NCBI GenBank assembly: GCA_964631475.1 | Contig: CAZVWK010000003.1 | Span: forward strand, 1 to 60,727 | Direction: 5' to 3' | DNA: 60,727 nt | Source: an uncultured Elusimicrobiaceae bacterium | GTDB lineage: Bacteria; Elusimicrobiota; Elusimicrobia; Elusimicrobiales; UBA9959 | Shown: one piece after another, positions 22,477 through 41,520 of the stretch | How the letters are laid out: each line of letters starts with the position of its first letter | Position numbering within the stretch: the first letter of the stretch is position 1 | Notes under the pieces: model-generated | Databases searched by the model: none | Seen by the model: only the letters and a program-made list of their open reading frames with translations | Told to the model about the DNA's origin: nothing | Translations under genes and position numbers: made by a program

Positions 22477-22716
22477 ATGGCCGGGCCGCGCCTGAAGCTG
22501 TGCGTCCTGGGCCGCCCGGGCGGTATGCCGGGGGGGGCGGCCGGTCGACGGCGCGGACGCCGGCGGCTCGGTCAGACCGCGGTCGAATATATCCTGGTCA
22601 CCACCGCCCTCCTGATCGCTTTCGTGATGATATACAGGGTCATGCAGTGGTACCTGACGGCGCAGTTCAGGGACGGGGGCATGGTGATAATGCGCAAATA
22701 CGAGGCCTTGCCCTGA
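22477..22716 (+). CDS. Flp-type prepilin with a long Arg-rich leader
   Basis: RRRLG|QTAVEYILVTTALLIAFV fits the Flp/TadE G/xxxxEY processing motif plus a hydrophobic helix. The start is uncertain (ATG 22477 or the internal Met at 22525). Confidence 0.55.
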   Translation: MAGPRLKLCVLGRPGGMPGGAAGRRRGRRRLGQTAVEYILVTTALLIAFVMIYRVMQWYLTAQFRDGGMVIMRKYEALP

Positions 22717-22787
22717 GCCGGACCGGGGCGGACGCCGGCCCCAAATAATATATAATTCCCAAGACAGACTCTGCGGAGGTTTCAATA

Positions 22788-22976
22788 ATGAAACTGCTTA
22801 AGAACAGGAAAGGTCAGAATACGGTGGAATACCTGCTGATGCTCGCGGTCGTGGTCGGCGTGGTGCTAATCGCCGGTATGGCGCTCAAGAACTACATGCC
22901 CGGTCTCTTCCAGAGCATACAGGGCATGATCAGCGGCGCGGCCAGCTCGCTGGGCGCCAGCGGCGGCAACCGCTGA
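22788..22976 (+). CDS. flp: Flp family type IVb pilin
   Basis: 62 aa. MKLLKNRKG|QNTVEYLLMLAVVVGVVLIAG is a textbook Flp leader, cleavage motif and hydrophobic core. GGAGG lies 9 nt upstream. Confidence 0.85.
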   Translation: MKLLKNRKGQNTVEYLLMLAVVVGVVLIAGMALKNYMPGLFQSIQGMISGAASSLGASGGNR

Positions 22977-23004
22977 AGACGAAGCGGACGGAGCCGGACG
23001 CCGC

Positions 23005-23042
23005 CGTTCCCGGCCGCCCCCCCGAGGGTGCGGCCGGGAACG
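23005..23042 (+). terminator. Strong hairpin after the flp gene (partial terminator or stabiliser candidate)
   Basis: Perfect 13-bp stem cgttcccggccgc (23005-23017) / gcggccgggaacg (23030-23042) with a 12-nt loop, 29 nt after the flp stop. No U-tract follows. Confidence 0.45.
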
Positions 23043-23074
23043 GACGTTACGGCGGGCCGGCGCTAGGAGCGGCG

Positions 23075-23566
23075 ATGGAGCGGGGCGAACGCAGGAGGGG
23101 ACAGGTCACGGTGGAGCTTCTGCTGGTGCTCCCCGTGTTCATGCTGATGCTCTTCCTAATAATGGAGCTCGGCAACCTGGCCTTCCAGACCATCCTCGCC
23201 CATCACAGCACCTACGAACTGGCGCGCATCGGTTCGCTGGTGGCCGGCCCCAGGGGAGGGGAGCTTTCCAACAACTGCGACAAGGGCAAGGCCGAGATAA
23301 AGATGCGCGAAGTGCTCTGCGATATGTTCACCAACTGCAACAACATGAGCGTTACGGCTGAATGCGTCTGGACCGGCCGGGACAGGCAGGTGCAGGACAC
23401 GGGCCTGCGGCACGACAACCACGACCTGCAGGTAACCCTGCTCTACCCGGCCAGGCTGGTATTCCCGGGCGCCAATTACATACTGTCCGACCCGCCCAGG
23501 CAGAAGCATTCCAAGGAAATAAAGGTGGTGTTGCGGATGCCCGTGGAGAAGCCGTTCCTGCAGTAG
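23075..23566 (+). CDS. tadE: TadE-like pseudopilin
   Basis: RRRGQVTVELLLVLPVFMLMLFLIMELGNLAF is a TadE-family N-terminus. 163 aa. Confidence 0.8.
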   Translation: MERGERRRGQVTVELLLVLPVFMLMLFLIMELGNLAFQTILAHHSTYELARIGSLVAGPRGGELSNNCDKGKAEIKMREVLCDMFTNCNNMSVTAECVWTGRDRQVQDTGLRHDNHDLQVTLLYPARLVFPGANYILSDPPRQKHSKEIKVVLRMPVEKPFLQ

Positions 23567-23638
23567 CAGCGATTTAACAGTAATTTAACAACCCTGTAAC
23601 CCGGGGCCGGTAAACTATAAGCCAGAGGTGCTCTGTCT

Positions 23639-24394
23639 ATGGAAAAGAAAGGATTCCTTCTCCCGCTGCTGCTTGCGCTGGGCGCGGCCATGATCTACTG
23701 GTGGATACTCTCCCAGAAGGAGAAGAACCTCGCCAAGGCCTACGAGATCGGGCAGGTGCTGGTCGCCCGGTTTGACCTGCCGGCCCGCACGGTCATCAAG
23801 GAGGACCTCGTCGAGGTCATCCAGATCCCGCGCAAGTACATGCAGCAGGACGTCTACGAGGTCCGCAGCCCCTCGGACATCAAGCACGTCGCCAATCTCG
23901 TGACCGCGGTCCGCATCCCCAAGGGCAACCAGGTCACCCAGAGCGCGCTGGTCTCCCTGAGCCCCGAGGCGGGCCTCAGCGTGAAAGTGCCTCCCGGCTA
24001 CCGCGGTTGCATCCTGCCGCTGGAGAACGAACTGCTCAGACTGGTCAAGCCCGGCGACCGCGTGGACGTGCTGGTCACTTTCGACGCCGTCATGGGCGAC
24101 AGCCGTAAGGAGAAGGTCACGGCCACGATCCTGCAGAACGTGCTGGTCCTGGGCGTCGGCACCAACCTCGGCCAGGGCATGTCCGCCGGCATGGCCAAGG
24201 ACAAAGCGGGCAAAGAGGCCGCCGACCAGGCCTTCTCCGACAAGGGCGTACTGAGCCTGGCCCTCAACCCCAACGAGGCGCAGTATCTCTCGCTCTCCGC
24301 CAAAACCGGCGAGGTGTCCGTGATAGTCCGAGGCCTCGGCGACATAGAACTGCATCCGATGGAGATAGCCAGCTTCAGGAAACTGATAAGGTGA
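23639..24394 (+). CDS. cpaB: Flp pilus assembly protein CpaB/RcpC
   Basis: N-terminal TM segment, a SAF-like segment (VLVARFDLPARTVIKEDL) and an RcpC-like beta part (VDVLVTFD...ILQNVLVLGVG). The position between tadE and the secretin is canonical. Confidence 0.85.
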   Translation: MEKKGFLLPLLLALGAAMIYWWILSQKEKNLAKAYEIGQVLVARFDLPARTVIKEDLVEVIQIPRKYMQQDVYEVRSPSDIKHVANLVTAVRIPKGNQVTQSALVSLSPEAGLSVKVPPGYRGCILPLENELLRLVKPGDRVDVLVTFDAVMGDSRKEKVTATILQNVLVLGVGTNLGQGMSAGMAKDKAGKEAADQAFSDKGVLSLALNPNEAQYLSLSAKTGEVSVIVRGLGDIELHPMEIASFRKLIR

Positions 24395-24416: not shown

Positions 24417-25142
24417 ATGAAAAGAATAATGCTGGCCCCCGCCCTCGCCGCCCTCCTGGCGTCGCCGGCGCAGGCCCAGAAGACCCAGATGGTGGCCGTC
24501 AGCGCCGACATCGTGGAGATAAGCGGCTCGATACAGAAGACGCGCGGCTTCTCCTGGAACCAGCTCTTCGAATTCGGGGAAAAGTCGGTCCCCGGGATAA
24601 TACGGCTGGGCGAGTTCGAACGCAAGACGCAGCTGAGCACCTCGCTCAAGCTCCTCGAGACCGAGGGCAAGGCCCAGCTGCTTTCCAACCCCAAGGTCAT
24701 AGCCAAGAGCGGCTCGCAGGCCAACTTCACGGTCGGCGGCGAAGTCCCCGTCCCCTATTCCAACAACCAGGGAGTCGGCGCGGAGTTCAAGAAGCACGGC
24801 GTCATCCTGCAGGTGCTGCCGGTGGTGCTGGCGGAGAAGAAGGACACCGTCGACGTGCAGATCGCGCTGGAGGTCTCCAACCCCGACTATTCCAAGCCGG
24901 TGGTCGTGGGCGGCACCACCATCCCGTCGATGATAACTAGGCAGGTGCAGACCGAGGTGGAGCTCAAGAGCGGCGAAACCCTGGTCATAGGCGGCCTCAA
25001 GAAGAGCAGCCGCAACGTTTCCAAGAACCGCGTGCCGATACTGGGCCATATCCCGCTGATCGGCAAGCTTTTTAGCTCTACGGACATAGTGGAGGACCAG
25101 AGCTCCCTGTTCCTCTTCGTGACTTTCGAGATAATAAAGTAG
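24417..25142 (+). CDS. cpaC: Secretin (CpaC/RcpA type), unusually short
   Basis: Signal peptide and a secretin C-domain (LLSNPKVIAKSGSQANFTVGGEVPVP, GVILQVLPVV, VELKSGETLVIGGL, VPILGHIPLIGKLF). It is only 241 aa in total, with about 70 aa before the secretin domain. Confidence 0.85.
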   Translation: MKRIMLAPALAALLASPAQAQKTQMVAVSADIVEISGSIQKTRGFSWNQLFEFGEKSVPGIIRLGEFERKTQLSTSLKLLETEGKAQLLSNPKVIAKSGSQANFTVGGEVPVPYSNNQGVGAEFKKHGVILQVLPVVLAEKKDTVDVQIALEVSNPDYSKPVVVGGTTIPSMITRQVQTEVELKSGETLVIGGLKKSSRNVSKNRVPILGHIPLIGKLFSSTDIVEDQSSLFLFVTFEIIK

Positions 25143-25155: not shown

Positions 25156-27393
<2,238 letters not shown>

Positions 27394-27403: not shown

Positions 27404-28948
27404 ATGAGGAAAGCCGCCGCCGCCGCCCTTTTCCTGCTGGTCCTCGCCGTTCCCCGGGCGGAGGCCTCCGTCTTCACGCGCGCGGAGATGGACGAGATAA
27501 GCTGCGCCGCCCTCAAGCTGCAGCTCTTCTATTACTACTTGGCCCCGGACAGGGAGCAGAAGATCCTAGACTACTCCTTCAAGTGCCGCGGCCGCGACAT
27601 ACGGCTGAAGATGCCGCAGTGGATGATAGATTCCGTCCAGGGCATGGCGGCCAAGCCCGCCTGGCGCGACCCCGAGGAGGGCGAGATAAGCGAGGCGGCC
27701 CTCTGGCAGGCCTCGGTCTCCATCCTCTACGAGTTCATGGAGATAAGCCGCAAGACCTTCCCGCCCGACCAGGGCGGGGCCTCCATCGCGCCGGCGCTGC
27801 TGGTGAAGGAATATTCCGACATGCGCATCCGGTTCCAGATGTCCCTGGACCGGCTCTACCGCGCCCGGCTGGGCGATTCCATGGAGGGGCGCGGGCGCGG
27901 CATGCTGGCGACCCTCTCCCTGATACTAAAGGAGATGGAGAGCATCGCCGACGCCATCTCCAGTTCCGACTCCAAGGCCTACGCCGCTGCGGTGACCGCC
28001 TCCTCGGTCCTGGCGCAGGACGCCTTCTTCCAGGTCTTCGAGCCGCCCCGCAAGTACGAGCCGCCCCGCCAAGCTTCGCGGTACGACAACCTAGTTACCG
28101 TGGCGGCCACGGTCCTCGGCGTCATACTGGTCTTCGCGGCGGTCCGCCTCTTCTTCATGCTCAACGAGAAAGAGACGGAGAAGATGACCGCGGATTACAT
28201 GGGCCGCGTCAACAGGTGGACCGACGACTTCTCGCGCCAGTTCATGACGGTCAAGGTGCACTACCTGGTCTTCCTGCCGGCGGGCTTCTTCGCGCTGTTG
28301 GGACTGCTGACCTTCAACCTGCTGATGTTCCTGCTGCTGAGCGCCTTCGGCATCTACGTCGGCATGAAGATGCCCGGCATCGTGCTGAAGTCCATGAAGC
28401 AGAGCCGCGGCAAGAAGATCGACACGCAGCTGATGGACGCGCTGATCCTGCTCTCCAACTGCCTCCGTTCGGGCCTGGACGTGGTCCAAGGCTTCGAAAT
28501 GGTCTCCAAGGATCTGCTGCCGCCCATCTCGGACGAGTTCGGCCTGGTCATAAAGAACTACCAGCTCGGCATGCCCTTCGAGAAGGCGCTGGGCGTCATG
28601 GAGGAGCGCGTCGAGTCAAAACTGCTCTCCTACATGATACGCGCCATCGTCCTGCAGCGCCAGATGGGCGGCAACCTGACCAAGGTCTTCGAGCGCATCG
28701 TGGTGGACATCCGCGAGGAGTCCAAGCTGGAGGAGAAGACCAAGGCGATGACGGCCCAGCAGAAGATACAGTCCATAGTCGTGGGCATCATGCCGTGGAT
28801 CATGGTCTCGGTCATGTTCATGTTCCAGCCGGACACGATGATGAAATTCTACGGGACGCCGCTCGGCATGTTCGTTTTCGTCGGCTGCGCCATCTGGATA
28901 AGCATAGGGATGAAGGTCGTTTCCAGCCTGGGTAAGATCCGGGTCTAG
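27404..28948 (+). CDS. tadB: TadB (T2SS-F family) with an N-terminal extension of about 250 aa
   Basis: The C-terminal 250 aa are T2SSF-like (LILLSNCLRSGLDVVQGFEMV, AIVLQRQMGGNL, flanking TM segments). The N-terminal part has a signal-like start MRKAAAAALFLLVLAVPRAEA and no family I recognise. Confidence 0.85.
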   Translation: MRKAAAAALFLLVLAVPRAEASVFTRAEMDEISCAALKLQLFYYYLAPDREQKILDYSFKCRGRDIRLKMPQWMIDSVQGMAAKPAWRDPEEGEISEAALWQASVSILYEFMEISRKTFPPDQGGASIAPALLVKEYSDMRIRFQMSLDRLYRARLGDSMEGRGRGMLATLSLILKEMESIADAISSSDSKAYAAAVTASSVLAQDAFFQVFEPPRKYEPPRQASRYDNLVTVAATVLGVILVFAAVRLFFMLNEKETEKMTADYMGRVNRWTDDFSRQFMTVKVHYLVFLPAGFFALLGLLTFNLLMFLLLSAFGIYVGMKMPGIVLKSMKQSRGKKIDTQLMDALILLSNCLRSGLDVVQGFEMVSKDLLPPISDEFGLVIKNYQLGMPFEKALGVMEERVESKLLSYMIRAIVLQRQMGGNLTKVFERIVVDIREESKLEEKTKAMTAQQKIQSIVVGIMPWIMVSVMFMFQPDTMMKFYGTPLGMFVFVGCAIWISIGMKVVSSLGKIRV

Positions 28949-33577: not shown

Positions 33578-33952
33578 ATGGCTTACAAAGTCCTCATAAT
33601 AGACGACGACACCCACCTCAGGGAGGGCCTGGCCGAGGTCCTCGACGCGGAAGGCTTTTCCTGCACGGAGGCCGGCAACGCCAGGGGCGGCGTCGATTCC
33701 GCCAAGAAGCAAAACCCGGACGTCGTCATCATGGACATACAACTGCCCGACTCCAGCGGCTTCCAAATCTGCCAGGAGCTCCGCAGGCACTCGAAGGAGT
33801 TCGTCCTGATCATGATGACAGGCCGGTTCCTCTCCGCGGAGGAGAAGACGCAGGGCTTCGAACTGGGCGCCGACGAGTACATCACCAAGCCTTTCGACAT
33901 ACAGGAGTTGTCCATACGCATAAAGCAGCTCCTCTCCAGGAAGGGAAAATGA
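33578..33952 (+). CDS. Single-domain (CheY-like) response regulator
   Basis: VLIIDDD, VVIMDIQLPDSSG, MMTG and ITKPF are all present, so all receiver signatures are intact. 124 aa. Confidence 0.9.
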   Translation: MAYKVLIIDDDTHLREGLAEVLDAEGFSCTEAGNARGGVDSAKKQNPDVVIMDIQLPDSSGFQICQELRRHSKEFVLIMMTGRFLSAEEKTQGFELGADEYITKPFDIQELSIRIKQLLSRKGK

Positions 33953-35385
33953 AGCGCCTGATGCCGGTCCTCCTGCTGCTCGCCTGCTCTTTCCAGGCCG
34001 CGCCCTCGCGCGCCGCCGGACCGGAGCTGGAACTCTATTTCGAGGCGATGGACGGGCAGAGCTGGCAGTGGTTCTTCATGGCCGACGCGGTCCGCAGGCG
34101 CATGCCCGGCGCGAAACTGGAGGTCCTGCCGCTGGTCTCCCGGGGGGAGAGCGGATGGGTCTCCAAGCGCGGCGAGCCGGAGCTGGAGGAGTCGGCCAGG
34201 ATAGCCTGGGTCGCCGCCGAGCGCCGGGAAGACCTTTTCAACTACCTCAACGCCCGCTCGCTGAGCCCCTGGGCCGACGGCTGGCGCGACGCGGCGCTCT
34301 TCAGCGGCATCGACCCCGACGAACTGGGCCGGAAGTCCGCCGAGGCCAGGGAGAAGCTTCTCGCCGGCCTCCACGAGCGCTCGGCCGCCCGCAAGGCCGA
34401 CTCCACCGCGCTGTACATAAACGGGGGGCTTTACGAAGGGGGACAGCGCCTGCTGGACCTCTACGCGGCCGCCAACGCCGTCCTGCCCGAGGCCTCGCGG
34501 CTCTACAAGCCCGCCGCGGAGGCCCCCGGCAAGCCCTCCGCCGCCGCCCGGACCCCCAGGATGTGGGTGCTGCTCTCCGCGAAGGACGAGGTGTCCGGCG
34601 ATCCCAACGTCGCCGGGGCTTTCAAGCGTTATTTCGCCGGCATAAAGCCCAAAGAGCTGGACTACGCCTCCGCGGAGGCGAAGAAGCTCCTCCGGTCGCC
34701 CAAATCCCTCCCCGCCTATGTCATCGAAGACACCCCGGAGGTGCGCAAGGCCTTCGAACAGGCGATACAGGCCGGCGCCTTCGAGCAGGCCGGCAGGAAT
34801 TTCGTCTACTACGACAGGGGCCGCAGGTCCGTTCTGCCGCTGGAGAAGTCCCTGCCCGGCGAGCTGGAGCTTTTCACCATGAGCATGTGCCCCTACGGCG
34901 TGCAGGCCGGCAACTCGCTGGCCGTCGCCCAGAAGCAGGGGCTGCTGCCGAAGGGTACGAAGCTGCGCTTCCGCTACATAGCCGACGCGGTCGCCGACGA
35001 GAAAGGCGGCCTGACCTTCAAGAGCCTGCAGGGCACCCCCGAATGGGAGGAGAACGCCAGGCAGCTCTTCATAAAAAAGAATTTCCCCGACAAGTTCTTC
35101 GACTACCTGCTGACGCGCAACAAGGACGTCAAGTCCAGCCGCTGGGAGGCCGCCGCCGAGGCGGCCGGCATAGACCCGGCGGCGGTGGCGGCCGGTTTCG
35201 AGGAAGGCAAGAGGCTGCTGGCCGAGGACGTCAAAAAGGCCGGCGCCCTGCGCATCGGGTCGTCGCCGACCTTCCTCGTCGACGGGCGCGTGCTGGTCAC
35301 CGGCCTGGGCGGCCTGGTCCAGATGAAGGGTTTCGAGAAGATACCCGTCAACCCTTCCGCGCAGGACATGGCCTGCGGCCGCTGA
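33949..35385 (+). CDS. Secreted protein with two DsbA/thioredoxin-like halves and degenerate active sites
   Basis: The in-frame ATG at 33949 overlaps the CheY stop (ATGA). Signal peptide MKRLMPVLLLLACSFQAAPSRAAG. Two similar halves each start ELELYFEAMD / ELELFTMSMCPYG, and the second ends in a DsbA-like GSSPTFLVDGRVL. Only CPYG is present, with no CxxC. Confidence 0.55.
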   Translation: MKRLMPVLLLLACSFQAAPSRAAGPELELYFEAMDGQSWQWFFMADAVRRRMPGAKLEVLPLVSRGESGWVSKRGEPELEESARIAWVAAERREDLFNYLNARSLSPWADGWRDAALFSGIDPDELGRKSAEAREKLLAGLHERSAARKADSTALYINGGLYEGGQRLLDLYAAANAVLPEASRLYKPAAEAPGKPSAAARTPRMWVLLSAKDEVSGDPNVAGAFKRYFAGIKPKELDYASAEAKKLLRSPKSLPAYVIEDTPEVRKAFEQAIQAGAFEQAGRNFVYYDRGRRSVLPLEKSLPGELELFTMSMCPYGVQAGNSLAVAQKQGLLPKGTKLRFRYIADAVADEKGGLTFKSLQGTPEWEENARQLFIKKNFPDKFFDYLLTRNKDVKSSRWEAAAEAAGIDPAAVAAGFEEGKRLLAEDVKKAGALRIGSSPTFLVDGRVLVTGLGGLVQMKGFEKIPVNPSAQDMACGR

Positions 35386-35388
35386 CAG

Positions 35389-35469: not shown

Positions 35470-37350
35470 ATGACACAGAGAAGGCAAAGAGGGCGGCTTT
35501 TTTACAAATTCCTGTTCGTTTTCCTGATAGTCTCGCTGGTGCCGCTCGGCATAGTGGGCTACTACCTGGTAAACCTCACGCAGGTCACCCTCAACAAGGC
35601 CATCACCCGCGACCAGGAGTCCCTGGCGGTCGGCTTCGCGGACACCGTCTCCACCTACATCACCTCCTTCCGGAACGTGCTCTACGACGCCGCGCACCTG
35701 AGCGACTTCGTCGGCATGGATACCGAGAAGCAGCGGAACATGGTGAACAACATCATGCAGCTGCACGCGGCCTTCCTCGAGGTGTCGGTCATCGGGGCGG
35801 ACGGGCAGGAGACCATACGCATAGGGCGCTTCCTCAAGGACAGCAGACTGCGCGATTTCTCCGGGGACGGCATCTTCCAGAAGGCGATAACGCGCGGCGA
35901 GTTCATCGGCGGCCTGGAACGCTATATGGGCTCCTACCCGACGCTCACCATAGCCATACAAATCGTCAGCCCGTCCGACAACCGGGCCGTGGGGGCGGTG
36001 CTGGCCAAGCTCAGCCTCAACGGGCTCTCCGGCATACTCAAGACCAGCTTTCCCGAGAGCACCCACACCCAGGCCGCGGTCATAGACTCGAGCGGCTTTC
36101 TGGTGGCGCATTCCAACCTGGAGGAGGTCTACAAGTCCGACGCCAAGATACCTGAGGACGTGCTCAAGATACTGCTGCAGAACGACGCCAGGACCGGCGG
36201 AGGGGAGATACTGCTCGACAGCGGGGAGAAAGTCCTGGGGGCCTTCGCCGAGGCAGAAGAGCTGGGCTGGGTCGTATACATACAGCGGTCCGTTTCCGTC
36301 GCCTACCAGGCCTCCGCGGATATGCTCGAGCGCACCTACAAGATGGGAGGCATCGTCTTCTTTTTCGTGCTCTTCCTGGGCTACGCCGTCTCGCTGGTCA
36401 TCGCCCAGCCCATACAGGCGCTGCGCGAGGCGGCCATAAAGCTGGGCGAGGGCGACTTCGACTACCTGCCCGACCTCAGTATGCCCAACGACGAGATCGG
36501 CGAGCTGGCCCACACCTTCATGCAGATGAGCGAGAGCCTCAAGGTCAAGACGGCCGAGATCATCTCGGCCAGGGACGAGATGGAGCGCCTCAACCGCAGC
36601 CTCGAGAACCGCGTCGAGGCCCGCACGCGCGAGCTGCGCAGCGCCCAGGACGAGCTGATCAAGAAGGAGCGCCTGGCCGCCATCGGGCAGATGTCGTCCG
36701 TCGTAGGCCACGAGATCCGCAACCCCCTGGCCGTCATCAACAACTCCATCTACTTCATAAAGACCAAGCTCGGCGCCGCGCCGCAGCAGCCGGACCCCAA
36801 GATGCTCAAGCACATCTCTATCATCGAGTCCGAGATACGCCAGGCCAACGGCATCATAGACGAGATACTCGGCTTCGCCAGGACCCGCGAGTTCAACCTC
36901 AAGCCCGCCAGCCTGAACTCCTATCTCGAGGACCTGACGATGTCTTTCCCTTTCCCGCCCCACGTGGAACTGGTCAAGCAGTTCTCCCCCGAAAACCCCG
37001 GGGTCAACATAGACGCGGACCAACTTGCCCAGGCCCTGCGCAACCTCATAAAGAACGGCATAGAGGTCATGCCCGAACGCGGCAGGGTCTACGTCCGCAG
37101 CGAGGTGGTCTCCCAGGACTGGGTGCGGGTCGATATCGAGGACGAGGGCCCCGGCATCCCCAAGGACGTCCTGGAAAAGATCTTCGCCCCCTTCTTCACC
37201 ACCAAGGCCCGCGGCACCGGCCTCGGCCTGGCGGTGGTCAAGAAGGTCACCGACGGGCACAAGGGTAAAGTGGAAGTGGTCAGCACCGTCGGCAAGGGCA
37301 CCTGTTTCAAGATTTACCTGCCTATTGTAAATATCGGTCGAAATAAGTGA
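35470..37350 (+). CDS. Sensor histidine kinase (TM, Cache-like periplasmic domain, TM, HAMP, HisKA, HATPase)
   Basis: HAMP segment (QPIQALREAAIKLGEGDFDY...DEIGELAHTF), H-box (SSVVGHEIRNPL), N/G boxes (NLIKNGIEV, DEGPGI, GTGLGLAVV). Confidence 0.9.
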   Translation: MTQRRQRGRLFYKFLFVFLIVSLVPLGIVGYYLVNLTQVTLNKAITRDQESLAVGFADTVSTYITSFRNVLYDAAHLSDFVGMDTEKQRNMVNNIMQLHAAFLEVSVIGADGQETIRIGRFLKDSRLRDFSGDGIFQKAITRGEFIGGLERYMGSYPTLTIAIQIVSPSDNRAVGAVLAKLSLNGLSGILKTSFPESTHTQAAVIDSSGFLVAHSNLEEVYKSDAKIPEDVLKILLQNDARTGGGEILLDSGEKVLGAFAEAEELGWVVYIQRSVSVAYQASADMLERTYKMGGIVFFFVLFLGYAVSLVIAQPIQALREAAIKLGEGDFDYLPDLSMPNDEIGELAHTFMQMSESLKVKTAEIISARDEMERLNRSLENRVEARTRELRSAQDELIKKERLAAIGQMSSVVGHEIRNPLAVINNSIYFIKTKLGAAPQQPDPKMLKHISIIESEIRQANGIIDEILGFARTREFNLKPASLNSYLEDLTMSFPFPPHVELVKQFSPENPGVNIDADQLAQALRNLIKNGIEVMPERGRVYVRSEVVSQDWVRVDIEDEGPGIPKDVLEKIFAPFFTTKARGTGLGLAVVKKVTDGHKGKVEVVSTVGKGTCFKIYLPIVNIGRNK

Positions 37351-37372
37351 TAATTCAACTGGCCTGCGGGGG

Positions 37373-37416: not shown

Positions 37417-38601
37417 ATGGGAAGCAAGATACTCATAACCGACGACGATTCGCATCTCCGCGAGACGCTGCGCGACCTCCTGGAAATGGAGGGCTACCAG
37501 GTATTCGAGGCCGCCTCTGGCGCCGAGGCCATGAAGATGGTGGTCTCGGATTTCTTCCACGTCATCCTGATGGACTTCAACCTGACCGACAAGACCGGCA
37601 TCGAGGTCATCAAGGACATCCGCAAGCTCAATACCGACAGCCAGATCCTCATGATGACCGCGCACGCCTCGCTCGACACCGCAGTCAAGGCCATACAGGA
37701 GTCGGTCTACGACTTCCTGATAAAGCCCGTCGATTTCAACTACCTGCGGCGCGCCATCAAGAAGGCCGAGGAGAAGCTCTACCTCGAGCAGGAGAACAAG
37801 CGGCTCATCGACATGCTGCGCCGCAACAACGAGCAGCTCGACCGGCTCAACAACATGAAGTCGAAGTTCCTGTCGATGGCCTCGCACGACCTGTCCAACT
37901 CGCTGATGACGCTGCAGATTAGCTTCGAGATGCTGGCCGGCACAATCAAGCCCGACGACGACCAGAAGAAAAAGATGGATTTCATCACCGCCAGCATCAC
38001 CCAGATCTCGCGCCTCATCGGGGACCTGGTGGACTGGGCGTCCATCGAGCAGGGCAAGTTCCGGCTCGAGAAAAACTATTTCGAGATGGACAAGATGGTC
38101 GCCGAGCTCGTCGCCGGGCCCAAGGCCCGCGCGCACCAGAAAAGCATCGAGATCGACTACAAGATCGGCGAGGGCCTCAAGATGGTCTGCGCCGACAGGC
38201 GCCGCATCGGCCAGGTCCTGCTCAACCTCCTCGAGAACGGCATCCGCCACACGCAGCGCGGCGGGAAGATCATCGTCTTCGTGGACAAGCTGGAGGACTC
38301 GGTCTGCGTCTCCGTGACCGACAACGGCGAGGGCATCCCCGCCGACGTGCTGACCAAACTTTTCCAGAGCTTTTACCAGCCGCAGGGCGGCAAGTCGCCG
38401 CACGGGCGGCTGGGCCTCGGCCTGAGCATTTCGAAAGAGATAATCCAGAGCCACGACGGGCGGATATGGGTGGAGTCGGAGGGGGAGGGGAAAGGCTCCT
38501 CCTTCAAGTTCACCATCCCTTTCGCCAAGGAAGGGTCCCGGACGGAGGGCGCGCCCCAGGCGCAGCAGCTGCCCAGGCAGCCGCCGGCCCAGCAGCAGTA
38601 A
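37417..38601 (+). CDS. Hybrid protein with an N-terminal receiver and a C-terminal histidine kinase
   Basis: REC domain (ILITDDD, VILMDFNLTD, MMTAH, LIKPV), then HisKA (FLSMASHDLSNSL) and HATPase (LLENGIRHT, DNGEGI, GLGLSISKEI). Confidence 0.9.
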   Translation: MGSKILITDDDSHLRETLRDLLEMEGYQVFEAASGAEAMKMVVSDFFHVILMDFNLTDKTGIEVIKDIRKLNTDSQILMMTAHASLDTAVKAIQESVYDFLIKPVDFNYLRRAIKKAEEKLYLEQENKRLIDMLRRNNEQLDRLNNMKSKFLSMASHDLSNSLMTLQISFEMLAGTIKPDDDQKKKMDFITASITQISRLIGDLVDWASIEQGKFRLEKNYFEMDKMVAELVAGPKARAHQKSIEIDYKIGEGLKMVCADRRRIGQVLLNLLENGIRHTQRGGKIIVFVDKLEDSVCVSVTDNGEGIPADVLTKLFQSFYQPQGGKSPHGRLGLGLSISKEIIQSHDGRIWVESEGEGKGSSFKFTIPFAKEGSRTEGAPQAQQLPRQPPAQQQ

Positions 38602-38680
38602 AGGCCGTGGACGGGGGATGCCATGCGGCATGATGTCCCCTGGGGTCCCGGCAGAGAAACCAAGGCAAGGAGCTAGAAAC

Positions 38681-39358
38681 ATGGCAAGCCCCAAAAAGAC
38701 GGTTACGGTTCTTATAGCGGACGACCAGACCCTTTTCCGGGAGGGAATAAAGGACCTCCTGGAGGATGAGAAAGGGATAACGGTGGTCGGCGAGGCCTCC
38801 AACGGCCCCGAGGCCGTCGCTATGGCCAAGAAGATAAAGCCCGACGTTATCCTGATGGACATAAAGCTGCCCCAGATGGACGGCGTCTCGGCCACCCGCA
38901 TCATCCGCAAGGACTGCCCGCAGACCAACGTGCTGATACTCTCCTCCTACGAGGACGAGGCCCACATCACCGAGGCCATACAGGCCGGCGCCAACGGCTA
39001 CCTGTCCAAGATGCTCCCGGCCAGTGAACTGGTCCACGCGCTCAAGACCTTCACCGCCGAGGGAGTCATGATCCCGCAGCCCATCATGGGCAAGCTGATA
39101 CAGGGCCTGCGCCAGATGGGCCCCGGAGGCTACGACAGCGCCCCGGATTCCCTGACCGCCACCGAGATCAAGGTGATGGCGCTGCTGGGCAAGGGCAAGA
39201 GCAACAAGGAGATAGCCGCTGAGCTCGGCTGCTCAGTCAAGACGGTCAAGAACCACCTCAACAGCATCTTCCAGAAACTGGGCGTCAACAACCGCACCGA
39301 GGCGGTCGTCAAGGCCATAGAGAAGGGCCTGATTACGCCGGAGGATGGCGCGAGGTAA
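38681..39358 (+). CDS. NarL/FixJ-type response regulator (REC plus LuxR HTH)
   Basis: The ATG at 38681 is preceded by AAGGAG. REC domain (VLIADDQ, VILMDIKLPQMDG, LSSY, YLSK) and LuxR HTH (LTATEIKVMALLGKGKSNKEIAAELGCSVKTVKNHLNSIFQKLGV). Confidence 0.9.
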   Translation: MASPKKTVTVLIADDQTLFREGIKDLLEDEKGITVVGEASNGPEAVAMAKKIKPDVILMDIKLPQMDGVSATRIIRKDCPQTNVLILSSYEDEAHITEAIQAGANGYLSKMLPASELVHALKTFTAEGVMIPQPIMGKLIQGLRQMGPGGYDSAPDSLTATEIKVMALLGKGKSNKEIAAELGCSVKTVKNHLNSIFQKLGVNNRTEAVVKAIEKGLITPEDGAR

Positions 39359-39397: not shown

Positions 39398-39432
39398 GGA
39401 GAGGCGGCCGGTCCCGGACCGCCCGCCTCTCC
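39398..39432 (+). terminator. GC-rich hairpin after the NarL-type regulator
   Basis: 10-bp stem ggagaggcgg (39398-39407) / ccgcctctcc (39423-39432) with further pairing inside the 15-nt loop. It lies 40 nt after the stop. No U-tract follows. Confidence 0.45.
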
Positions 39433-39483
39433 ATTGCCCGCCGCGCAACACCTATTTAACAATGGCTATCCATAATAGGGGTA

Positions 39484-39512
39484 TTGAAAACCCCGGTTTT
39501 TGGTGGTATAAC
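39484..39512 (+). promoter_or_regulatory. Sigma70-type promoter of the second flp cluster
   Basis: TTGAAA (39484-89), a 17-nt spacer, then TATAAC (39507-12). It lies 35 nt upstream of the flp ATG at 39547. Confidence 0.55.
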
Positions 39513-39546
39513 ATCGAGTAGAATCAGCGGGCCGGGAACGCGGAAA

Positions 39547-39750
39547 ATGACGGAACTGGAACTTGTTAAATACCTGCCGGCGCCTGCCGCCCTCCGCTTC
39601 AGGCGGGGGCAGAACCTAGTGGAGTATATGCTCATGCTGGCCGTAGTGGTCGGCGTGACGCTGATGCTCGGGGTCGCCTTTCACCGGAGGTTCCTCGGCG
39701 GGTTCTTCACGCTGATAGGCATGATTATAGGCGGCGGCGCGCCTAAATGA
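39547..39750 (+). CDS. flp: Flp family pilin (third paralogue)
   Basis: LRFRRG|QNLVEYMLMLAVVVGVTLMLG. The core is nearly identical to the 22788 pilin (GQN-VEY-LMLAVVVGV). The ATG at 39547 is preferred to the TTG at 39484, which sits inside the promoter. Confidence 0.8.
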   Translation: MTELELVKYLPAPAALRFRRGQNLVEYMLMLAVVVGVTLMLGVAFHRRFLGGFFTLIGMIIGGGAPK

Positions 39751-39763
39751 GCGGCGGGGACTT

Positions 39764-40948
39764 ATGAACGCGAGCGGGACCGAAGGCGGACGCGGGTGGA
39801 CCGGGCTCAGGCGCGCGGGACAAGTCCTCATTCCCTCCATCTTCGTAATTCCCACGCTTTTCCTTTTCGTCTACCTCCTGTTTGAGACGGCCAAGATCTC
39901 CCGCGAGAAGATCCGCCAGCAGTTCGCGGTGGACTCGGCCGCCTTCATACAGATGGGCGACTATACCAATTTCTTCAACCGCACGGCCTACGTGAACGGC
40001 GCCTTCCCCTACCGCATTTTCAAGGAGGCTTTCGAGTGCCCCTCCATCGGGCCGGAGATAGACAACGTCTACAAGTACACCAACAAAGAGGAATACCTCT
40101 GCCTCTACGACATGCTCTACGACAACGGCGTCATTCCCAAGTACGACGGCGACGAGCCGCGCGTGCAGCCCAGGCCGCTCGACTCCGAGACCAAGTGGAG
40201 CATCGCCTACAAGGACACGCTCCGGCCCGGCATCAACGACCTGCAGCCCGGCACCGACCTCGACGAGAGGCTCATCCTGCTCACCTACAACCAGGGCCAG
40301 TACGTCTACATCTTCTGGAACGAGGCCTCGGGCTTCGTCTACAAGTTCTACGCCCAGGTCTATACGCTCCTCGGGTCCGTGCAGGAATCCCAGTACACGG
40401 TCTTCAAGCGCCTGACGGAGAACTTCAATTTCTTCCGCAAGTCGTACTACCTCAACGCCAGCCCGCAGGACTGCGTGGACAACCCGGCCACCTGCGGCGA
40501 GCAGGGGCTCACGTCCGGGGGCAACAACTTCATCTCGCGCCGGATCACCAAGAGCGACGGCAACTTCGCGATGCACTTCATACAGAAGATAAAGTTCTTC
40601 TCCAAGAAGCCCTATATGCACCCCATACTGGGGCAGCAGTACCAGATGGTGGAGACGCCCGACATAGACATGCCCTCGCCCGGGCTCTTCCAGGTCGCGT
40701 CGATCAGGAAAGACGATCTGCGCCGGCTGGGAGAGGGCGTGGAGATCTTCCAGGGCTGGAACGCCGGGGCCAACTATTTCAACGTGCCGCTTGACACTCT
40801 CGCCGCCTGCCGGGAGACCGGACGCCCATGCGTGCACGCGCGCGTGGCCACGCAGTGCCCTGCGATGTGGGGCGGCGGCTGGTCCGGCAAGAACAACTGC
40901 GTCTGGCCCAACCCCACGCCCAAATACCAGACCAGGCTCTATCCCTGA
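39764..40948 (+). CDS. TadG-like large pseudopilin / pilus-associated protein
   Basis: N-terminus RRAGQVLIPSIFVIPTLFLFVYLLFETAKISREKIRQQFAVDSAAF resembles the Tad_N/TadG start. 394 aa with several Cys. It lies directly after flp. Confidence 0.65.
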   Translation: MNASGTEGGRGWTGLRRAGQVLIPSIFVIPTLFLFVYLLFETAKISREKIRQQFAVDSAAFIQMGDYTNFFNRTAYVNGAFPYRIFKEAFECPSIGPEIDNVYKYTNKEEYLCLYDMLYDNGVIPKYDGDEPRVQPRPLDSETKWSIAYKDTLRPGINDLQPGTDLDERLILLTYNQGQYVYIFWNEASGFVYKFYAQVYTLLGSVQESQYTVFKRLTENFNFFRKSYYLNASPQDCVDNPATCGEQGLTSGGNNFISRRITKSDGNFAMHFIQKIKFFSKKPYMHPILGQQYQMVETPDIDMPSPGLFQVASIRKDDLRRLGEGVEIFQGWNAGANYFNVPLDTLAACRETGRPCVHARVATQCPAMWGGGWSGKNNCVWPNPTPKYQTRLYP

Positions 40949-41520
40949 TGACCCGTCATAAGGCCCCTGACATCCGCCTGAAGGACCGCCTGGAGGCCGC
41001 CGGCCTCTGGCCCCGCCCGCGCCGCCGCAGAGGGCAGGCCATGACCGAGGTCGTGCTGCTGTTCCCCATCTTCATGATTATCGCCTTCCTGACGCTGAAG
41101 ATCTTCCAGCTGCTGGTGCTGGTGCAGAAGATGGAGATAGCCTCTTACTACGCCGGCCGCCGCTGGCAGCTGGAGTCCCATATCAATGTCGCCTACACTC
41201 CCGACGACAAGGCCCTGAAGATGGACATAGAGAAGGTGGTGCGGGACTATCTCGGCTACGGTACCGACGCCAGGAGCGTCAGGCTGGACATCGAGCGCAC
41301 CCAGGTCTGGAACGTAGTGACGATAACCGTCGAGACCCGCCCCCCGGGGCTCGGGCTCTTCTGCAGGTATCCCAAACAGACCATCTGCGCCCATCCCTAC
41401 GGCCAGGCCTGCAACGACGGCTACGATTATATCTGCGGCGGCGGGAAGAAGCTGGAGGTGGTCAAGTACGTGCCCAACCGCGACCGCCCCATACGGTTCG
41501 TGCTGCCGGGCCTGCAATAG
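40948..41520 (+). CDS. tadE: TadE-like pseudopilin
   Basis: The ATG at 40948 shares a nucleotide with the upstream stop (TGATG). RRRGQAMTEVVLLFPIFMIIAFLTLKIF is a TadE-type N-terminus. Confidence 0.75.
   Translation: MTRHKAPDIRLKDRLEAAGLWPRPRRRRGQAMTEVVLLFPIFMIIAFLTLKIFQLLVLVQKMEIASYYAGRRWQLESHINVAYTPDDKALKMDIEKVVRDYLGYGTDARSVRLDIERTQVWNVVTITVETRPPGLGLFCRYPKQTICAHPYGQACNDGYDYICGGGKKLEVVKYVPNRDRPIRFVLPGLQ

What the first reader, a model, noticed from the sequence alone, without database searches (positions are those of the whole stretch)
22477..41520. Tad/Flp pilus locus split in two by an 8-kb signalling island
Part one (22477-31216) carries two flp-type genes, tadE, cpaB, the secretin, tadZ-tadA, tadB, tadC and a TPR protein. 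Part two (39547-41520) carries a third flp, a tadG-like gene and a second tadE-like gene behind its own promoter. Between them sit a HAMP/PAS sensor without output, a small membrane protein, a pseudo-receiver OmpR-type regulator, a CheY, a tandem DsbA-like protein, a Cache-HAMP kinase, a REC-kinase hybrid and a NarL-type regulator. Classical tad loci (Aggregatibacter, Caulobacter) are contiguous and are not interleaved with a multi-component phosphorelay.
Basis: partly seen in the sequence, partly recalled or inferred. Interest (0 to 1): 0.7.

Follow-up and report, generated by a model that had tools for sequence, protein, structure and literature searches.

The report
Tad pilus cluster with built-in regulators
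An uncultured Elusimicrobia bacterium carries a Tad adhesion-pilus gene cluster with its own multi-part signalling module and a separately promoted pilus-tip operon; this layout is old and conserved across the order, and it elaborates a design already known from Pseudomonas.

Summary

The window comes from an Elusimicrobiales genome. The whole gene order is colinear in 40 of 40 species-level relatives. The signalling proteins are the best-conserved proteins in the block (NarL about 92%, REC-kinase about 85%, against TadE and TadG about 53%). So the island is not a recent foreign insertion.

"Split in two" misdescribes it. More distant relatives show three modules:
- the machine plus a kinase-less WalK-like sensor, with or without smallTM, a DsbA-like protein and the Cache kinase;
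- a pseudo-receiver OmpR-type regulator plus CheY, always gained or lost together;
- REC-kinase, NarL, terminator, conserved promoter, then flp3, tadG-like and tadE-like genes.

NarL sits directly upstream of the tadG-like gene in 54 of 56 metagenome loci.

The cluster also extends beyond the given coordinates. Upstream it includes a CHU_C adhesin-like gene and a PorV/Q-like gene. Downstream it includes an unknown membrane protein and an S41 protease behind the same promoter type.

The best reading is a dedicated phosphorelay that gates expression of a minor-pilin "tip" operon and so gates pilus deployment. This is inferred, not shown.

A precedent exists. The P. aeruginosa tad locus carries pprA and pprB among its pseudopilin genes. 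The verdict is a new variant of a known kind, of moderate interest.

The parts
18340..21452 (+). Large FlgD_ig-repeat surface protein with a CHU_C (T9SS type-B-like) C-terminal domain. In the window it is split into two overlapping ORFs (18340-19335 and 19296-21452) by a frameshift near 19299.
   Evidence: Pfam hits. Single 1059-1157-aa ORFs in L041, L043, L046, L047 and L051 align across the frame change. The gene is syntenic directly upstream of the tad genes in all relatives.
21460..22473 (+). PorV/PorQ-family-like outer-membrane protein. It ends 3 bp before flp1.
   Evidence: NCBIfam PorV_fam E 3e-16, below cut-off. Conserved in position in all loci that reach it.
22477..22716 (+). flp1, a divergent Flp-type prepilin with the cleavage motif LG|QTAVEY.
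   Evidence: Motif in sequence. GQTA[IV]E is kept in orthologues. About 50% identity across species.
22788..22976 (+). flp2, the likely major Flp pilin (KG|QNTVEY), with a strong GGAGG ribosome-binding site.
   Evidence: Pfam Class_IIIsignal and Flp1_like. 85-100% identity across species, the best-conserved structural gene. GQNTVE in 28 of 29 orthologues.
23002..23046 (+). G+C-rich hairpin right after flp2, a likely attenuator or mRNA-stabilising hairpin behind the major pilin gene.
   Evidence: MFE -48 kcal/mol, z -4.1 in the window. A hairpin of varying sequence is present in all 30 loci: median z -2.5, against +0.84 for a coding control.
23075..23566 (+). tadE-type pseudopilin (RG|QVTVE).
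   Evidence: Pfam TadE E 9e-10.
23639..24394 (+). cpaB/rcpC.
   Evidence: Pfam RcpC E 7e-15 plus SAF.
24417..25142 (+). Minimal secretin of 241 aa: signal peptide plus secretin domain only.
   Evidence: Pfam Secretin E 2e-41. The best PDB relative is RcpA 8odn, matched only over its residues 207-370. Relatives are 237-263 aa.
25156..27393 (+). TadZ(ParA-like)::TadA/CpaF fusion ATPase with no N-terminal atypical receiver domain.
   Evidence: CbiA at residues 12-228 and T2SSE at 381-661. CpaF 9e24 E 2.5e-115 over residues 309-724. More than 120 clusters of about 740-aa proteins have both domains.
27404..28948 (+). TadB-type platform protein with a signal peptide and an N-terminal extension of about 230 aa.
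   Evidence: T2SSF at residues 347-472. Relatives are 496-538 aa.
28962..29858 (+). TadC-type platform protein.
   Evidence: T2SSF.
29894..31216 (+). Secreted TPR protein in the position of TadD. It has no lipobox.
   Evidence: TPR families. It was the anchor for 40 related loci.
31290..32408 (+). Kinase-less WalK-like sensor: TM, extracytoplasmic PAS/Cache-like domain, TM, HAMP, cytoplasmic PAS. It has no DHp or catalytic domain.
   Evidence: HAMP. AF2 pLDDT 87. Best PDB match is the WalK model 9a5d_A, TM 0.63, E 2e-15, and the WalK extracellular domains 4ywz and 7dud. The family has 381 proteins; every source name listed is Elusimicrobia or unclassified 'bacterium'. It stays with part one even where the rest of the island is absent (L043).
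32504..32800 (+). 98-aa membrane protein. It is the first gene after a conserved AT-rich promoter-like element.
   Evidence: DUF3566-like TM hit. Conserved upstream motif AATAATTATGTATTATAT.
32810..33565 (+). OmpR/PhoB-type winged-helix regulator with a dead receiver.
   Evidence: Trans_reg_C E 3e-25 with partial Response_reg. Asp to Gly at the phospho-site, Lys to Ser/Cys, acidic pocket AAKD and a 15-25-aa insert in 30 orthologues.
33578..33952 (+). Stand-alone canonical receiver (CheY-like). Its nearest families are OmpR/PhoB-type receivers.
   Evidence: Response_reg E 4e-28. DD, D53, T81 and K104 are present. Top NCBIfam hits are PhoB, CreB and MtrA. 80% identical even in L050.
33949..35385 (+). 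Periplasmic tandem thioredoxin-fold (DsbA-like) protein. The N-half has no Cys. The C-half has CP[YF]G plus an invariant C-terminal Cys.
   Evidence: Weak DSBA hit. Weak GILT hit on the L048 orthologue. Only C314 and C476 are invariant in 31 sequences.
35470..37350 (+). dCache_1-HAMP-HisKA-HATPase sensor kinase.
   Evidence: Pfam. The H-box SVVGHEIRNPL is in the sequence.
37325..37354 (+). Promoter-like site upstream of the REC-kinase gene (TTGTAA-18-GATAAT).
   Evidence: The homologous TTGTAT-N17-TATAAA is conserved in most distant relatives. Insertions occur at this junction in L011, L028, the P0240 contig and L132/L116.
37417..38601 (+). Cytoplasmic REC-HisKA-HATPase kinase with an N-terminal receiver.
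   Evidence: Pfam. Canonical receiver residues. About 85% identity across species.
38618..39358 (+). NarL/LuxR-type response regulator. The true start is possibly 38681.
   Evidence: Response_reg plus GerE. About 92% identity across species, the highest in the block. It lies directly upstream of the tadG-like gene in 54 of 56 metagenome loci.
39398..39432 (+). Terminator hairpin after the NarL gene.
   Evidence: Conserved as a structure with changing sequence and a T-run in most relatives. Median z -3.5, with 18 of 21 below -2.
39447..39461 (+). Conserved AACA-N7-AACA direct repeat with 11-bp register, upstream of the flp3 promoter. It is either a candidate regulator site or an UP element.
   Evidence: Alignment of 20 intergenic regions. 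It is absent upstream of the dn1 promoter.
39484..39514 (+). P_flp3: TTGAAA-N17-TATAACAT with a TGG extended -10.
   Evidence: Near-invariant in 20 aligned species. It occurs exactly once per locus, always before flp3, in 24 related loci. Chance expectation in the window is 0.03.
39547..39750 (+). flp3, an Flp-type minor pilin (RG|QNLVEY).
   Evidence: Motif. tblastn cross-hits to flp2.
39764..40948 (+). TadG-type large pseudopilin (AG|QVLIP) with a lineage-specific Cys-rich globular domain.
   Evidence: Family of 355 proteins, or 141 representatives; every source name listed is Elusimicrobia. Distant profile hits carry PF13400 in the matched N-terminus. AF2 pLDDT 79, with a 52-residue N-terminal helix plus an alpha/beta domain. 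No PDB fold match. Eight invariant or near-invariant Cys.
40948..41520 (+). Second TadE-like pseudopilin (RG|QAMTE), Cys-rich. It overlaps the tadG stop.
   Evidence: Sub-threshold TadE hit. It follows tadG-like in 69 of 69 metagenome loci.
41532..41562 (+). Second exact copy of TTGAAA-N17-TATAACAT, upstream of dn1.
   Evidence: The same motif lies before the dn1 orthologue in L045 and L049.
41666..42949 (+). dn1: a single-pass membrane protein with a Gly/Ala/Ser-rich linker and a Cys-rich C-terminus. Function unknown.
   Evidence: No Pfam or NCBIfam hit. Downstream of the tip genes in 27 of 35 metagenome loci. Translationally coupled to tadE2 in L048.
42960..44066 (+). PDZ-S41 C-terminal processing protease.
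   Evidence: Pfam. Downstream in 26 of 35 metagenome loci. Coupled to dn1 in L048.

Best explanation
This is one native Elusimicrobial Tad (type IVc) pilus supercluster, about 18.3-44.1 kb in the window. It is built from co-inherited modules. It is not a tad locus interrupted by foreign DNA.

Module A is the machine: adhesin-like CHU_C protein, PorV/Q-like protein, flp1, flp2, tadE, cpaB, mini-secretin, tadZ::tadA, tadB, tadC, TPR protein, and a kinase-less WalK-like sensor. In most lineages smallTM, a DsbA-like protein and a dCache kinase follow it.

Module B is a pseudo-receiver OmpR-type regulator plus a stand-alone OmpR-family receiver.

Module C is REC-kinase, a NarL-type regulator, a terminator, a conserved promoter, and then flp3, tadG-like and tadE-like genes. 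dn1 and an S41 protease follow behind the same promoter type.

What is shown: gene identities, colinearity across the order, module boundaries, conserved promoters and terminators, and the dead receiver.

What is inferred as the mechanism:
1. The periplasmic dCache kinase senses a ligand.
2. It passes phosphate to the receiver of the cytoplasmic REC-kinase, and to CheY.
3. The REC-kinase phosphorylates its adjacent NarL partner.
4. NarL~P activates P_flp3 and possibly P_dn1.
5. A minor-pilin 'tip' complex (Flp3, TadG-like, TadE-like) is made. It primes and functionalises the Flp2 filament.
6. The DsbA-like protein helps to fold these Cys-rich pseudopilins.
7. CheY~P may act in trans on the pseudo-receiver OmpR-type regulator, as a 'split' response regulator.
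For: Tad identity of the machine and pilins:
- CpaF-type ATPase, two T2SSF proteins, RcpC, an RcpA-like secretin, and a ParA-like TadZ domain.
- Six proteins share the G|Q prepilin motif, across both parts.
- The tadG-like N-terminus links to PF13400.

Co-inheritance:
- 40 of 40 species-level loci are colinear with no internal gene missing.
- Signalling proteins are more conserved than structural ones.
- CheY is 80% and NarL 75% identical in L050, where TadZA is 61%.

Module boundaries:
- Insertions and rearrangements fall only at TPR|HAMP, HAMP|smallTM and CacheHK|RECHK.
- These junctions carry conserved promoter-like elements.
- OmpR* and CheY are present or absent together.

Link between NarL and the tip operon:
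- NarL is upstream of tadG-like in 54 of 56 metagenome loci, RECHK in 41 of 43, and tadE2 is downstream in 69 of 69.
- The unit stays intact when 11.7 kb of housekeeping genes separate it from CacheHK on one 1.22-Mb contig.
- A conserved terminator plus promoter lies between NarL and flp3.
- The same promoter type lies before dn1.

Precedents:
- PprB, a NarL-family regulator encoded among the P. aeruginosa tad pseudopilin genes, activates all tad transcription units (PMC3510237).
- Tad minor pilins form tip complexes with a large, disulfide-rich TadG/KilN subunit that has no PDB homologue (PMC12075869). This matches.
Against: - There is no expression, binding or phosphotransfer data. Every regulatory arrow is inference from adjacency.
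- P_flp3 looks like an ordinary sigma-70 extended -10 promoter and could be constitutive.
- The AACA repeat could be an UP element, and it is absent at P_dn1.
- L050 has the whole phosphorelay but no tip operon behind it, so NarL must have at least one other target there.
- L043, L046 and L047 have the machine without this island, so the machine does not strictly need it.
- L108 and L131 have a tip module with no adjacent regulator.
- The DsbA-like protein lacks a CxxC site.
- No prepilin peptidase is encoded anywhere in the 60.7-kb window.
Confidence: 0.6

Rival explanations
1. Recent foreign insertion. An unrelated 8-kb signalling island landed in a once-contiguous tad locus and has no functional tie to it.
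For: Mobile elements do land in this block: IS200-like genes in L011 and L025, and a recombinase element in L023. Base composition of the island (0.61-0.66 GC) is slightly lower than some neighbours.
Against: The island is present and colinear in every species-level relative that reaches it. It also appears in lineages down to 53% HAMP identity. Its proteins are the most conserved in the block. GC3 and composition match the rest of the cluster. No relative shows an unsplit flp-to-tadG locus.
Confidence: 0.03
2. Conserved neighbours with a different job. The phosphorelay controls something other than the pilus, such as the giant Ig-domain surface protein downstream, envelope stress or c-di-GMP. 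It sits next to tad genes only through inherited synteny.
For: L050 keeps the phosphorelay without the tip operon, followed by an outer-membrane protein and a giant S8/HEAT protein. In the window, a >5178-aa Big-domain ORF follows, and a GAF-GGDEF gene lies upstream. Two-component systems are often poorly predictive of their neighbours.
Against: Flanking genes outside the block differ between lineages, while the tad-signalling linkage persists. RECHK-NarL stays glued to the tip operon even when separated from everything else. The experimentally proven PprAB case has the same layout (PMC3510237).
Confidence: 0.15
3. The pilus is the sensor. The kinase-less WalK-like protein and CheY couple the state of the Tad machine (surface contact, retraction load) to the phosphorelay. 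Signalling would then be downstream of the pilus, a Tad counterpart of Pil-Chp surface sensing. Outputs would run through NarL and OmpR* to tip pilins and adhesins.
For: The sensor stub belongs to the machine module even where no kinase follows (L043). It has the WalK sensor architecture but no output domain. TadZ here lacks its usual receiver-like domain, while a free receiver and a pseudo-receiver are encoded nearby. The REC-kinase has no sensor of its own.
Against: This is purely architectural. There is no CheA or CheW. A bona fide ligand-binding dCache kinase is present, which suggests chemical rather than mechanical input. L041 and L048 lack CheY and OmpR* but keep the rest.
Confidence: 0.2

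Closest known systems
Pseudomonas aeruginosa flp-rcp-tad locus with the embedded PprA-PprB two-component system (PA4293-PA4306; PMC3510237, citing Bernard et al. 2009)
   Same: A NarL/LuxR-family response regulator and a histidine kinase are encoded inside the tad locus, interleaved with the pseudopilin genes (pprA, tadF, fppA, pprB, tadG). The locus has several transcription units. There, the regulator activates the pilus genes.
   Different: Here there are two kinases (a dCache kinase and a REC-kinase), four receiver-type proteins including a dead one, a kinase-less sensor and a DsbA-like protein. All genes are on one strand. No prepilin peptidase lies in the locus. TadZ and TadA are fused and the secretin is minimal. 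Orthology of NarL to PprB was not tested, and regulation is not shown.
Pectobacterium flp/tad cluster with flanking OmpR-type two-component system ECA0785-0786 (PMC3767616)
   Same: [quoted passage not shown] It includes an OmpR-family regulator.
   Different: That system flanks the locus rather than lying inside it. Its regulator has a normal receiver. There is a single kinase.
Myxococcus Kil system and its 'Tip' minor-pilin clusters (PMC8460266, PMC12075869)
   Same: It is a Tad-type machine whose TadE/F/G-like minor pilins are encoded in separate modules. The large TadG/KilN-like subunit has a long N-terminal helix, a distal domain without a PDB homologue, and many disulfides. Flp-type minor pilins are associated with the tips.
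   Different: No sequence relationship to the Kil tips was tested. The module here has Flp3, TadG-like and one TadE-like protein, and no third pseudopilin was recognised. There is no link to predation or to a T3SS. Here the module is tied to a dedicated kinase-regulator pair.
Canonical Tad/Cpa loci of Aggregatibacter actinomycetemcomitans and Caulobacter crescentus; TXSScan 'Tad' model (PMC6668835)
   Same: The core set is present: Flp, TadE, RcpC/CpaB, secretin, TadZ, TadA/CpaF, TadB, TadC, and a TPR protein in the TadD position. Gene order is largely the same. Tad systems had already been detected in Elusimicrobia.
   Different: TadZ is fused to TadA and lacks the atypical receiver domain. 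The secretin is 241 aa. TadB has a long periplasmic extension. TadV is absent from the locus. Regulators are embedded.

Membership tests
Tad/Flp (type IVc) pilus system | CpaF/TadA-clade secretion ATPase | tested here: met
   T2SSE E 6e-64. CpaF structures 9e24 and 8rkd E about 1e-115 over residues 309-724.
Tad/Flp (type IVc) pilus system | Two separate platform proteins, TadB and TadC (T2SSF) | tested here: met
   Two adjacent T2SSF proteins.
Tad/Flp (type IVc) pilus system | TadZ/CpaE ParA/MinD-like protein | tested here: met
   CbiA and AAA_31 domains at residues 10-228 of the 745-aa ORF. The domain is fused to TadA and lacks the N-terminal receiver-like domain. The fusion is conserved in more than 120 clusters.
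Tad/Flp (type IVc) pilus system | RcpA/CpaC secretin and RcpC/CpaB | tested here: met
   Secretin E 2e-41 and RcpC E 7e-15. The best PDB relative is RcpA, but only the secretin domain is present.
Tad/Flp (type IVc) pilus system | Short Flp pilin with a G/xxxxEY processing motif | tested here: met
   flp2 hits Class_IIIsignal above cut-off and Flp1_like below cut-off. The motif is in flp1, flp2 and flp3.
Tad/Flp (type IVc) pilus system | TadE/TadF/TadG pseudopilins | tested here: met
   TadE E 9e-10. The tadG-like family profile reaches PF13400-bearing proteins through its N-terminus. The second TadE-like gene is only sub-threshold.
Tad/Flp (type IVc) pilus system | Dedicated prepilin peptidase (TadV/CpaA) in the locus | tested here: not met
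   No Peptidase_A24 hit on any of the 41 window ORFs scanned, which cover essentially all coding ORFs of the window. It may be encoded elsewhere. Peptidases are known to be shared between systems (PMC6668835).
PprAB-type tad-embedded two-component control | NarL/LuxR-family regulator and a kinase encoded among the tad pseudopilin genes | tested here: met
   REC-GerE and REC-HisKA-HATPase lie immediately upstream of flp3-tadG-tadE. This holds in 54 of 56 and 41 of 43 metagenome loci.
PprAB-type tad-embedded two-component control | The regulator binds and activates tad promoters | not testable with these tools
   This needs EMSA, DAP-seq or a reporter assay. Only conserved promoter and repeat elements were found.
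PprAB-type tad-embedded two-component control | Orthology to PprA/PprB | not tested
   NCBIfam gives only generic NarL, MctR and GacA-level similarity below cut-offs.
Tad 'Tip' minor-pilin complex (Kil-type) | Large TadG/KilN-like subunit: N-terminal pilin helix plus a distal domain without a PDB homologue, rich in disulfides | tested here: met
   Helix at residues 23-74 plus an alpha/beta domain, pLDDT 79. No Foldseek PDB hit better than E 2. Eight invariant or near-invariant Cys.
Tad 'Tip' minor-pilin complex (Kil-type) | Predicted heteromeric bundle of the minor pilins | not testable with these tools
   No multimer prediction was available.
OmpR/PhoB response regulators (for 32810-33565) | Phosphorylatable receiver: acidic pocket, Asp, Thr/Ser and Lys | tested here: not met
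   AAKD pocket, Asp to Gly, Lys to Ser/Cys, and a 15-25-aa insert, in 30 orthologues. The winged-helix domain is intact. This is an atypical, phosphorylation-independent member.
DsbA thiol-disulfide oxidoreductases (for 33949-35385) | CxxC active site in a thioredoxin fold | tested here: not met
   Only CP[YF]G plus a distant C-terminal Cys are invariant. The DSBA hit is below cut-off. The fold was not modelled.
Type IX secretion cargo plus PorV/PorQ shuttle (for 18340-22473) | CHU_C/type-B C-terminal domain on the cargo and a PorV/Q-family barrel next to it | tested here: inconclusive
   CHU_C E 1.5e-9. PorV_fam E 3e-16 but below cut-off. Core T9SS genes were not searched for.

The most novel reading that the evidence does not exclude
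The cluster encodes a Tad-pilus-coupled sensory circuit with no described counterpart. A kinase-less WalK-like sensor is built into the machine module. A 'split' OmpR-family regulator is formed by a dead-receiver DNA-binding protein that is switched in trans by the adjacent free receiver. A two-kinase cascade (dCache kinase, then REC-kinase, then NarL) licenses assembly of an exchangeable pilus tip. This would be a Tad analogue of the Pil-Chp surface-sensing system of type IVa pili.
Probability: 0.15. Interest if true: 0.7.

Novelty: new variant of a known kind. Interest (0 to 1): 0.38.

Why it matters
Tad pili drive adhesion, biofilm formation, surface sensing and, in predators, contact killing. 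How their assembly is switched on is known for very few organisms.

This cluster gives a phylum-level, strongly conserved example in uncultured Elusimicrobia. In it the regulators are physically wired to a separate minor-pilin 'tip' operon. That supports the recent idea that Tad pili are functionalised by exchangeable tips, and it suggests that tip expression is the control point.

The cluster also offers compact, testable oddities:
- a TadZ::TadA fusion;
- a 241-aa secretin;
- a kinase-less WalK-like sensor;
- a pseudo-receiver regulator paired with a free receiver.

If the regulatory inference is wrong, the finding is only a tidy piece of comparative annotation.

Tried and rejected
- An exact-sequence look-up of the window's TPR protein found no record.
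- The generic promoter and terminator scan of 22-42 kb gave counts no higher than shuffles. It missed P_flp3 because of its final-base rule. Phylogenetic footprinting was used instead.
- My first promoter pattern had the wrong spacer length and found nothing. It was corrected.
- The ORF listing reported a 449-aa ORF at 34068-35417. This is an Arg-rich off-frame artefact, and the real gene is 33949-35385.
It was repeated with database proteins.
- The Foldseek PDB search with the tadG-like model gave no hit, so its assignment rests on the profile link to PF13400.
- NCBIfam gave no equivalog-level name for any signalling or pilin protein.
- Literature searches found no description of this Elusimicrobial cluster.
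- L023, which seemed to lack the island, is interrupted by a scaffold gap followed by a low-GC recombinase element. It is not a counter-example.
- A recent insertion was considered and rejected on the basis.

Full report
**Observation**

Pfam identifies these genes in part one:
- flp2 (22788-22976);
- TadE (23075-23566);
- RcpC/CpaB (23639-24394);
- a 241-aa secretin (24417-25142);
- a 745-aa ORF with a ParA-like CbiA domain followed by T2SSE, which is a TadZ::TadA fusion (25156-27393);
- two T2SSF platform proteins (27404-28948 and 28962-29858);
- a TPR protein (29894-31216).

The island holds these genes:
- a TM-HAMP protein;
- a 98-aa membrane protein;
- an OmpR-type regulator with a partial receiver hit;
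- a CheY-like receiver;
- a weakly DsbA-like protein;
- a dCache-HAMP kinase;
- a REC-kinase;
- a REC-GerE regulator.

The DsbA-like gene is 33949-35385 and overlaps the CheY stop codon. The 34068 ORF in the mechanical list is an off-frame artefact.

flp1, flp3, both TadE-like proteins and the 394-aa 'tadG-like' protein all carry a G|Q prepilin-type motif. In five of the six, Glu sits at +5. This ties parts one and two to the same processing pathway.

The ATPase half is CpaF-like, E about 1e-115 to solved CpaF structures. The secretin's nearest solved relative is RcpA.

**Origin and conservation**

The TPR protein retrieved 40 loci from different species-level genomes, all Elusimicrobia/Elusimicrobiales MAGs.

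tblastn with 26 window proteins shows the same order in every locus. No gene is missing inside any locus.

Of the 22 loci that extend far enough, 21 carry the complete island through NarL. All 20 that reach further have flp3.

The only exception is L023. There a scaffold gap and a low-GC recombinase element follow the HAMP gene.

Among the more distant species, median identities are as follows:

| Protein | Median identity |
|---|---|
| NarL | 92% |
| flp2 | 87% |
| REC-kinase | 85% |
| OmpR-type | 82% |
| CheY | 81% |
| TadZ::TadA | 80% |
| Cache kinase | 77% |
| TadG-like | 54% |
| TadE | 53% |
| flp1 | 50% |
| DsbA-like | 48% |

**More distant relatives show modules rather than a split**

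These contexts came from database homologues of TadZ::TadA, of the tadG-like protein and of the HAMP protein:
- L041, L042 and L048 lack only the OmpR*-CheY pair.
- L043 and L044 end after the HAMP-like gene, and SecA follows.
- L046 and L047 have a GAF kinase after the TPR gene.
- L050 (HAMP 53%, TadZA 61%) has HAMP-smallTM-OmpR*-CheY-CacheHK-RECHK-NarL. It has no DsbA-like gene and no tip operon.
- L051 and L132 have HAMP-smallTM-DsbA-CacheHK only.

On the same 1.22-Mb contig as L132, RECHK-NarL-flp3-tadG-tadE2 lies 11.7 kb further on. A RecD-like helicase, ferredoxin, PFOR, nucleotidase and Lnt genes lie in between (L116).

A metagenome scan anchored on the tadG-like family gave 80 loci:
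- NarL is directly upstream in 54 of 56.
- The REC-kinase is upstream in 41 of 43.
- The Cache kinase is upstream in 28 of 33.
- The TadE-like gene is downstream in 69 of 69.
- dn1 is downstream in 27 of 35, and an S41 protease in 26 of 35.

Two divergent loci, L108 and L131, carry the tip genes alone among housekeeping genes.

Insertions also occur at junctions:
- a HAMP paralogue in L005 and L033;
- IS200-like genes in L011 and L025;
- glycosyltransferases in the P0240 contig;
- toxin-antitoxin-like genes in L028.

They fall only at TPR|HAMP, HAMP|smallTM and CacheHK|RECHK.

No relative shows flp-to-tadG without regulators in between. 'Split by an island' is therefore not the history the data suggest. 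The block is an accretion of a machine module, a sensor module and a regulator-plus-tip module.

**Transcription-unit signals**

Alignment of the NarL-flp3 spacer from 20 species shows three features:
- a hairpin of changing sequence, mostly followed by a T-run;
- an AACA-N7-AACA repeat;
- a near-invariant TTGAAx-N17-(TGG)TATAACAT.

The last motif occurs once per locus, always before flp3, in 24 related loci. It occurs exactly twice in the window, at 39484-39514 before flp3 and at 41532-41562 before dn1. The chance expectation is 0.03. It also precedes dn1 in L045 and L049.

Hairpins after NarL and after flp2 are much more stable than shuffles. Median z is -3.5 and -2.5, against +0.84 for a coding control.

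Conserved AT-rich promoter-like elements precede smallTM and the REC-kinase gene.

The predicted units are:
1. adhesin-like gene through HAMP, with an attenuator behind flp2;
2. smallTM through the Cache kinase;
3. REC-kinase and NarL;
4. flp3, tadG-like and tadE-like;
5. dn1 and the S41 protease.

**Individual proteins**

- **OmpR-type regulator.** It has a dead receiver. The acidic pocket reads AAKD, Asp is replaced by Gly, Lys by Ser/Cys, and there is an insert. This is conserved in 30 orthologues. The other three receivers are canonical.
- **Free receiver.** It is closest to OmpR/PhoB-family receivers. It is always present or absent together with the dead-receiver regulator. This suggests a regulator split into a DNA-binding half and a phosphorylatable half. 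That idea is inference only.
- **HAMP protein.** It models well, pLDDT 87. It superposes on a full-length WalK model through the extracytoplasmic PAS/Cache-like domain, HAMP and the cytoplasmic PAS domain, then stops short of the kinase core.
- **tadG-like protein.** It models at pLDDT 79, with a 52-residue N-terminal helix and a globular domain that has no PDB match. It has eight conserved cysteines. Its family is small: 141 representatives among 1.8 billion proteins. Distant profile hits carry the PF13400 TadE/G-like domain in the matched region.
- **DsbA-like protein.** It keeps only CP[YF]G and one C-terminal Cys.

**Comparison with known systems**

Tad systems have already been reported in Elusimicrobia, and Tad systems are nearly always single-locus (PMC6668835).

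The P. aeruginosa tad locus contains pprA and the NarL-family pprB among tadF, fppA and tadG. PprB activates all tad units (PMC3510237).

Pectobacterium has a flanking OmpR-type system that activates flp/tad (PMC3767616).

Myxococcus shows that TadE/F/G-like minor pilins form exchangeable, disulfide-rich tips. These are encoded in separate modules and include a large TadG/KilN subunit with no PDB homologue (PMC12075869).

The present cluster combines these ideas in a more elaborate, lineage-specific form. I found no paper describing it.

**Verdict**

The finding is a new variant of a known kind, of moderate interest. The regulatory mechanism is a well-motivated inference that needs transcript mapping, DNA-binding tests and phosphotransfer tests.

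Noticed in passing
window 18340-21452 (frame change near 19299): The FlgD_ig/CHU_C surface-protein gene is split into two overlapping ORFs. Homologues in L041, L043, L046, L047 and L051 are single ORFs of 1059-1157 aa that align across the frame change. This is either a real pseudogene or an assembly error.
   Followed up: partly
window 18340-22473: A protein with a T9SS-type CHU_C C-terminal domain sits next to a PorV/PorQ-family-like barrel gene, which ends 3 bp before flp1. The pair is conserved upstream of the tad genes in all relatives, in a phylum not known for type IX secretion. Its link to the pilus is unknown.
   Followed up: partly
window 25156-27393: TadZ and TadA/CpaF are fused into one protein of about 740 aa, and the usual N-terminal receiver-like domain of TadZ is missing. 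The fusion is conserved in more than 120 protein clusters. In L050 the fusion protein is 859 aa.
   Followed up: partly
window 24417-25142: The secretin is only 241 aa: a signal peptide, about 55 residues, and the secretin domain. It matches RcpA only over RcpA residues 207-370. Relatives are 237-263 aa.
   Followed up: partly
window 27404-28948: The TadB-type platform protein carries a signal peptide and an N-terminal extension of about 230 aa with no family hit. The extension is conserved in relatives.
   Followed up: no
window 45209-60727: An open reading frame of more than 5178 aa runs off the end of the window. It has scattered bacterial Ig-like domains (Big_13, Big_7, Big_3_2) and looks like a giant surface protein. 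It lies just downstream of the cluster and a HEAT-repeat gene (44269-45201). Giant ORFs follow in L045, L049 and L050 too.
   Followed up: partly
window 41532-44066: dn1 (membrane protein, low-complexity linker, Cys-rich end) and a PDZ-S41 protease sit behind an exact second copy of the flp3 promoter motif. They are translationally coupled to the TadE-like gene in L048. They probably belong to the tip module.
   Followed up: partly
window about 13400-14944: A GAF-GGDEF diguanylate cyclase gene lies upstream. The TsaD-SBP-GGDEF order is also found directly upstream of the adhesin-like gene in L041 and L042.
   Followed up: no
whole window: No prepilin peptidase (Peptidase_A24) gene was found among the ORFs scanned, although six predicted prepilins are encoded here.
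   Followed up: partly
window 32810-33952: The dead-receiver OmpR-type regulator and the adjacent free OmpR-family receiver are always gained or lost together across lineages. This suggests a response regulator split into two polypeptides.
   Followed up: partly
window 33949-35385: The tandem DsbA-like protein has lost the CxxC site. Only CP[YF]G (C314) and a C-terminal Cys (C476) are invariant. The N-terminal half has no cysteine at all.
   Followed up: partly
L001, L004, L033 upstream of the REC-kinase gene; L011 17788-18915; L025 1767-2750: Small inverted-repeat elements and IS200/REP-associated transposase-like genes have inserted at the module junctions in some relatives.
   Followed up: no
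window 567-6429 (- strand) and 7860-11122: Two ordinary neighbours: an AcrB/HlyD/OEP efflux operon in which a TetR domain is fused to the outer-membrane factor ORF, and an FtsX-M23-CtpB-like S41 cell-envelope cluster.
   Followed up: no
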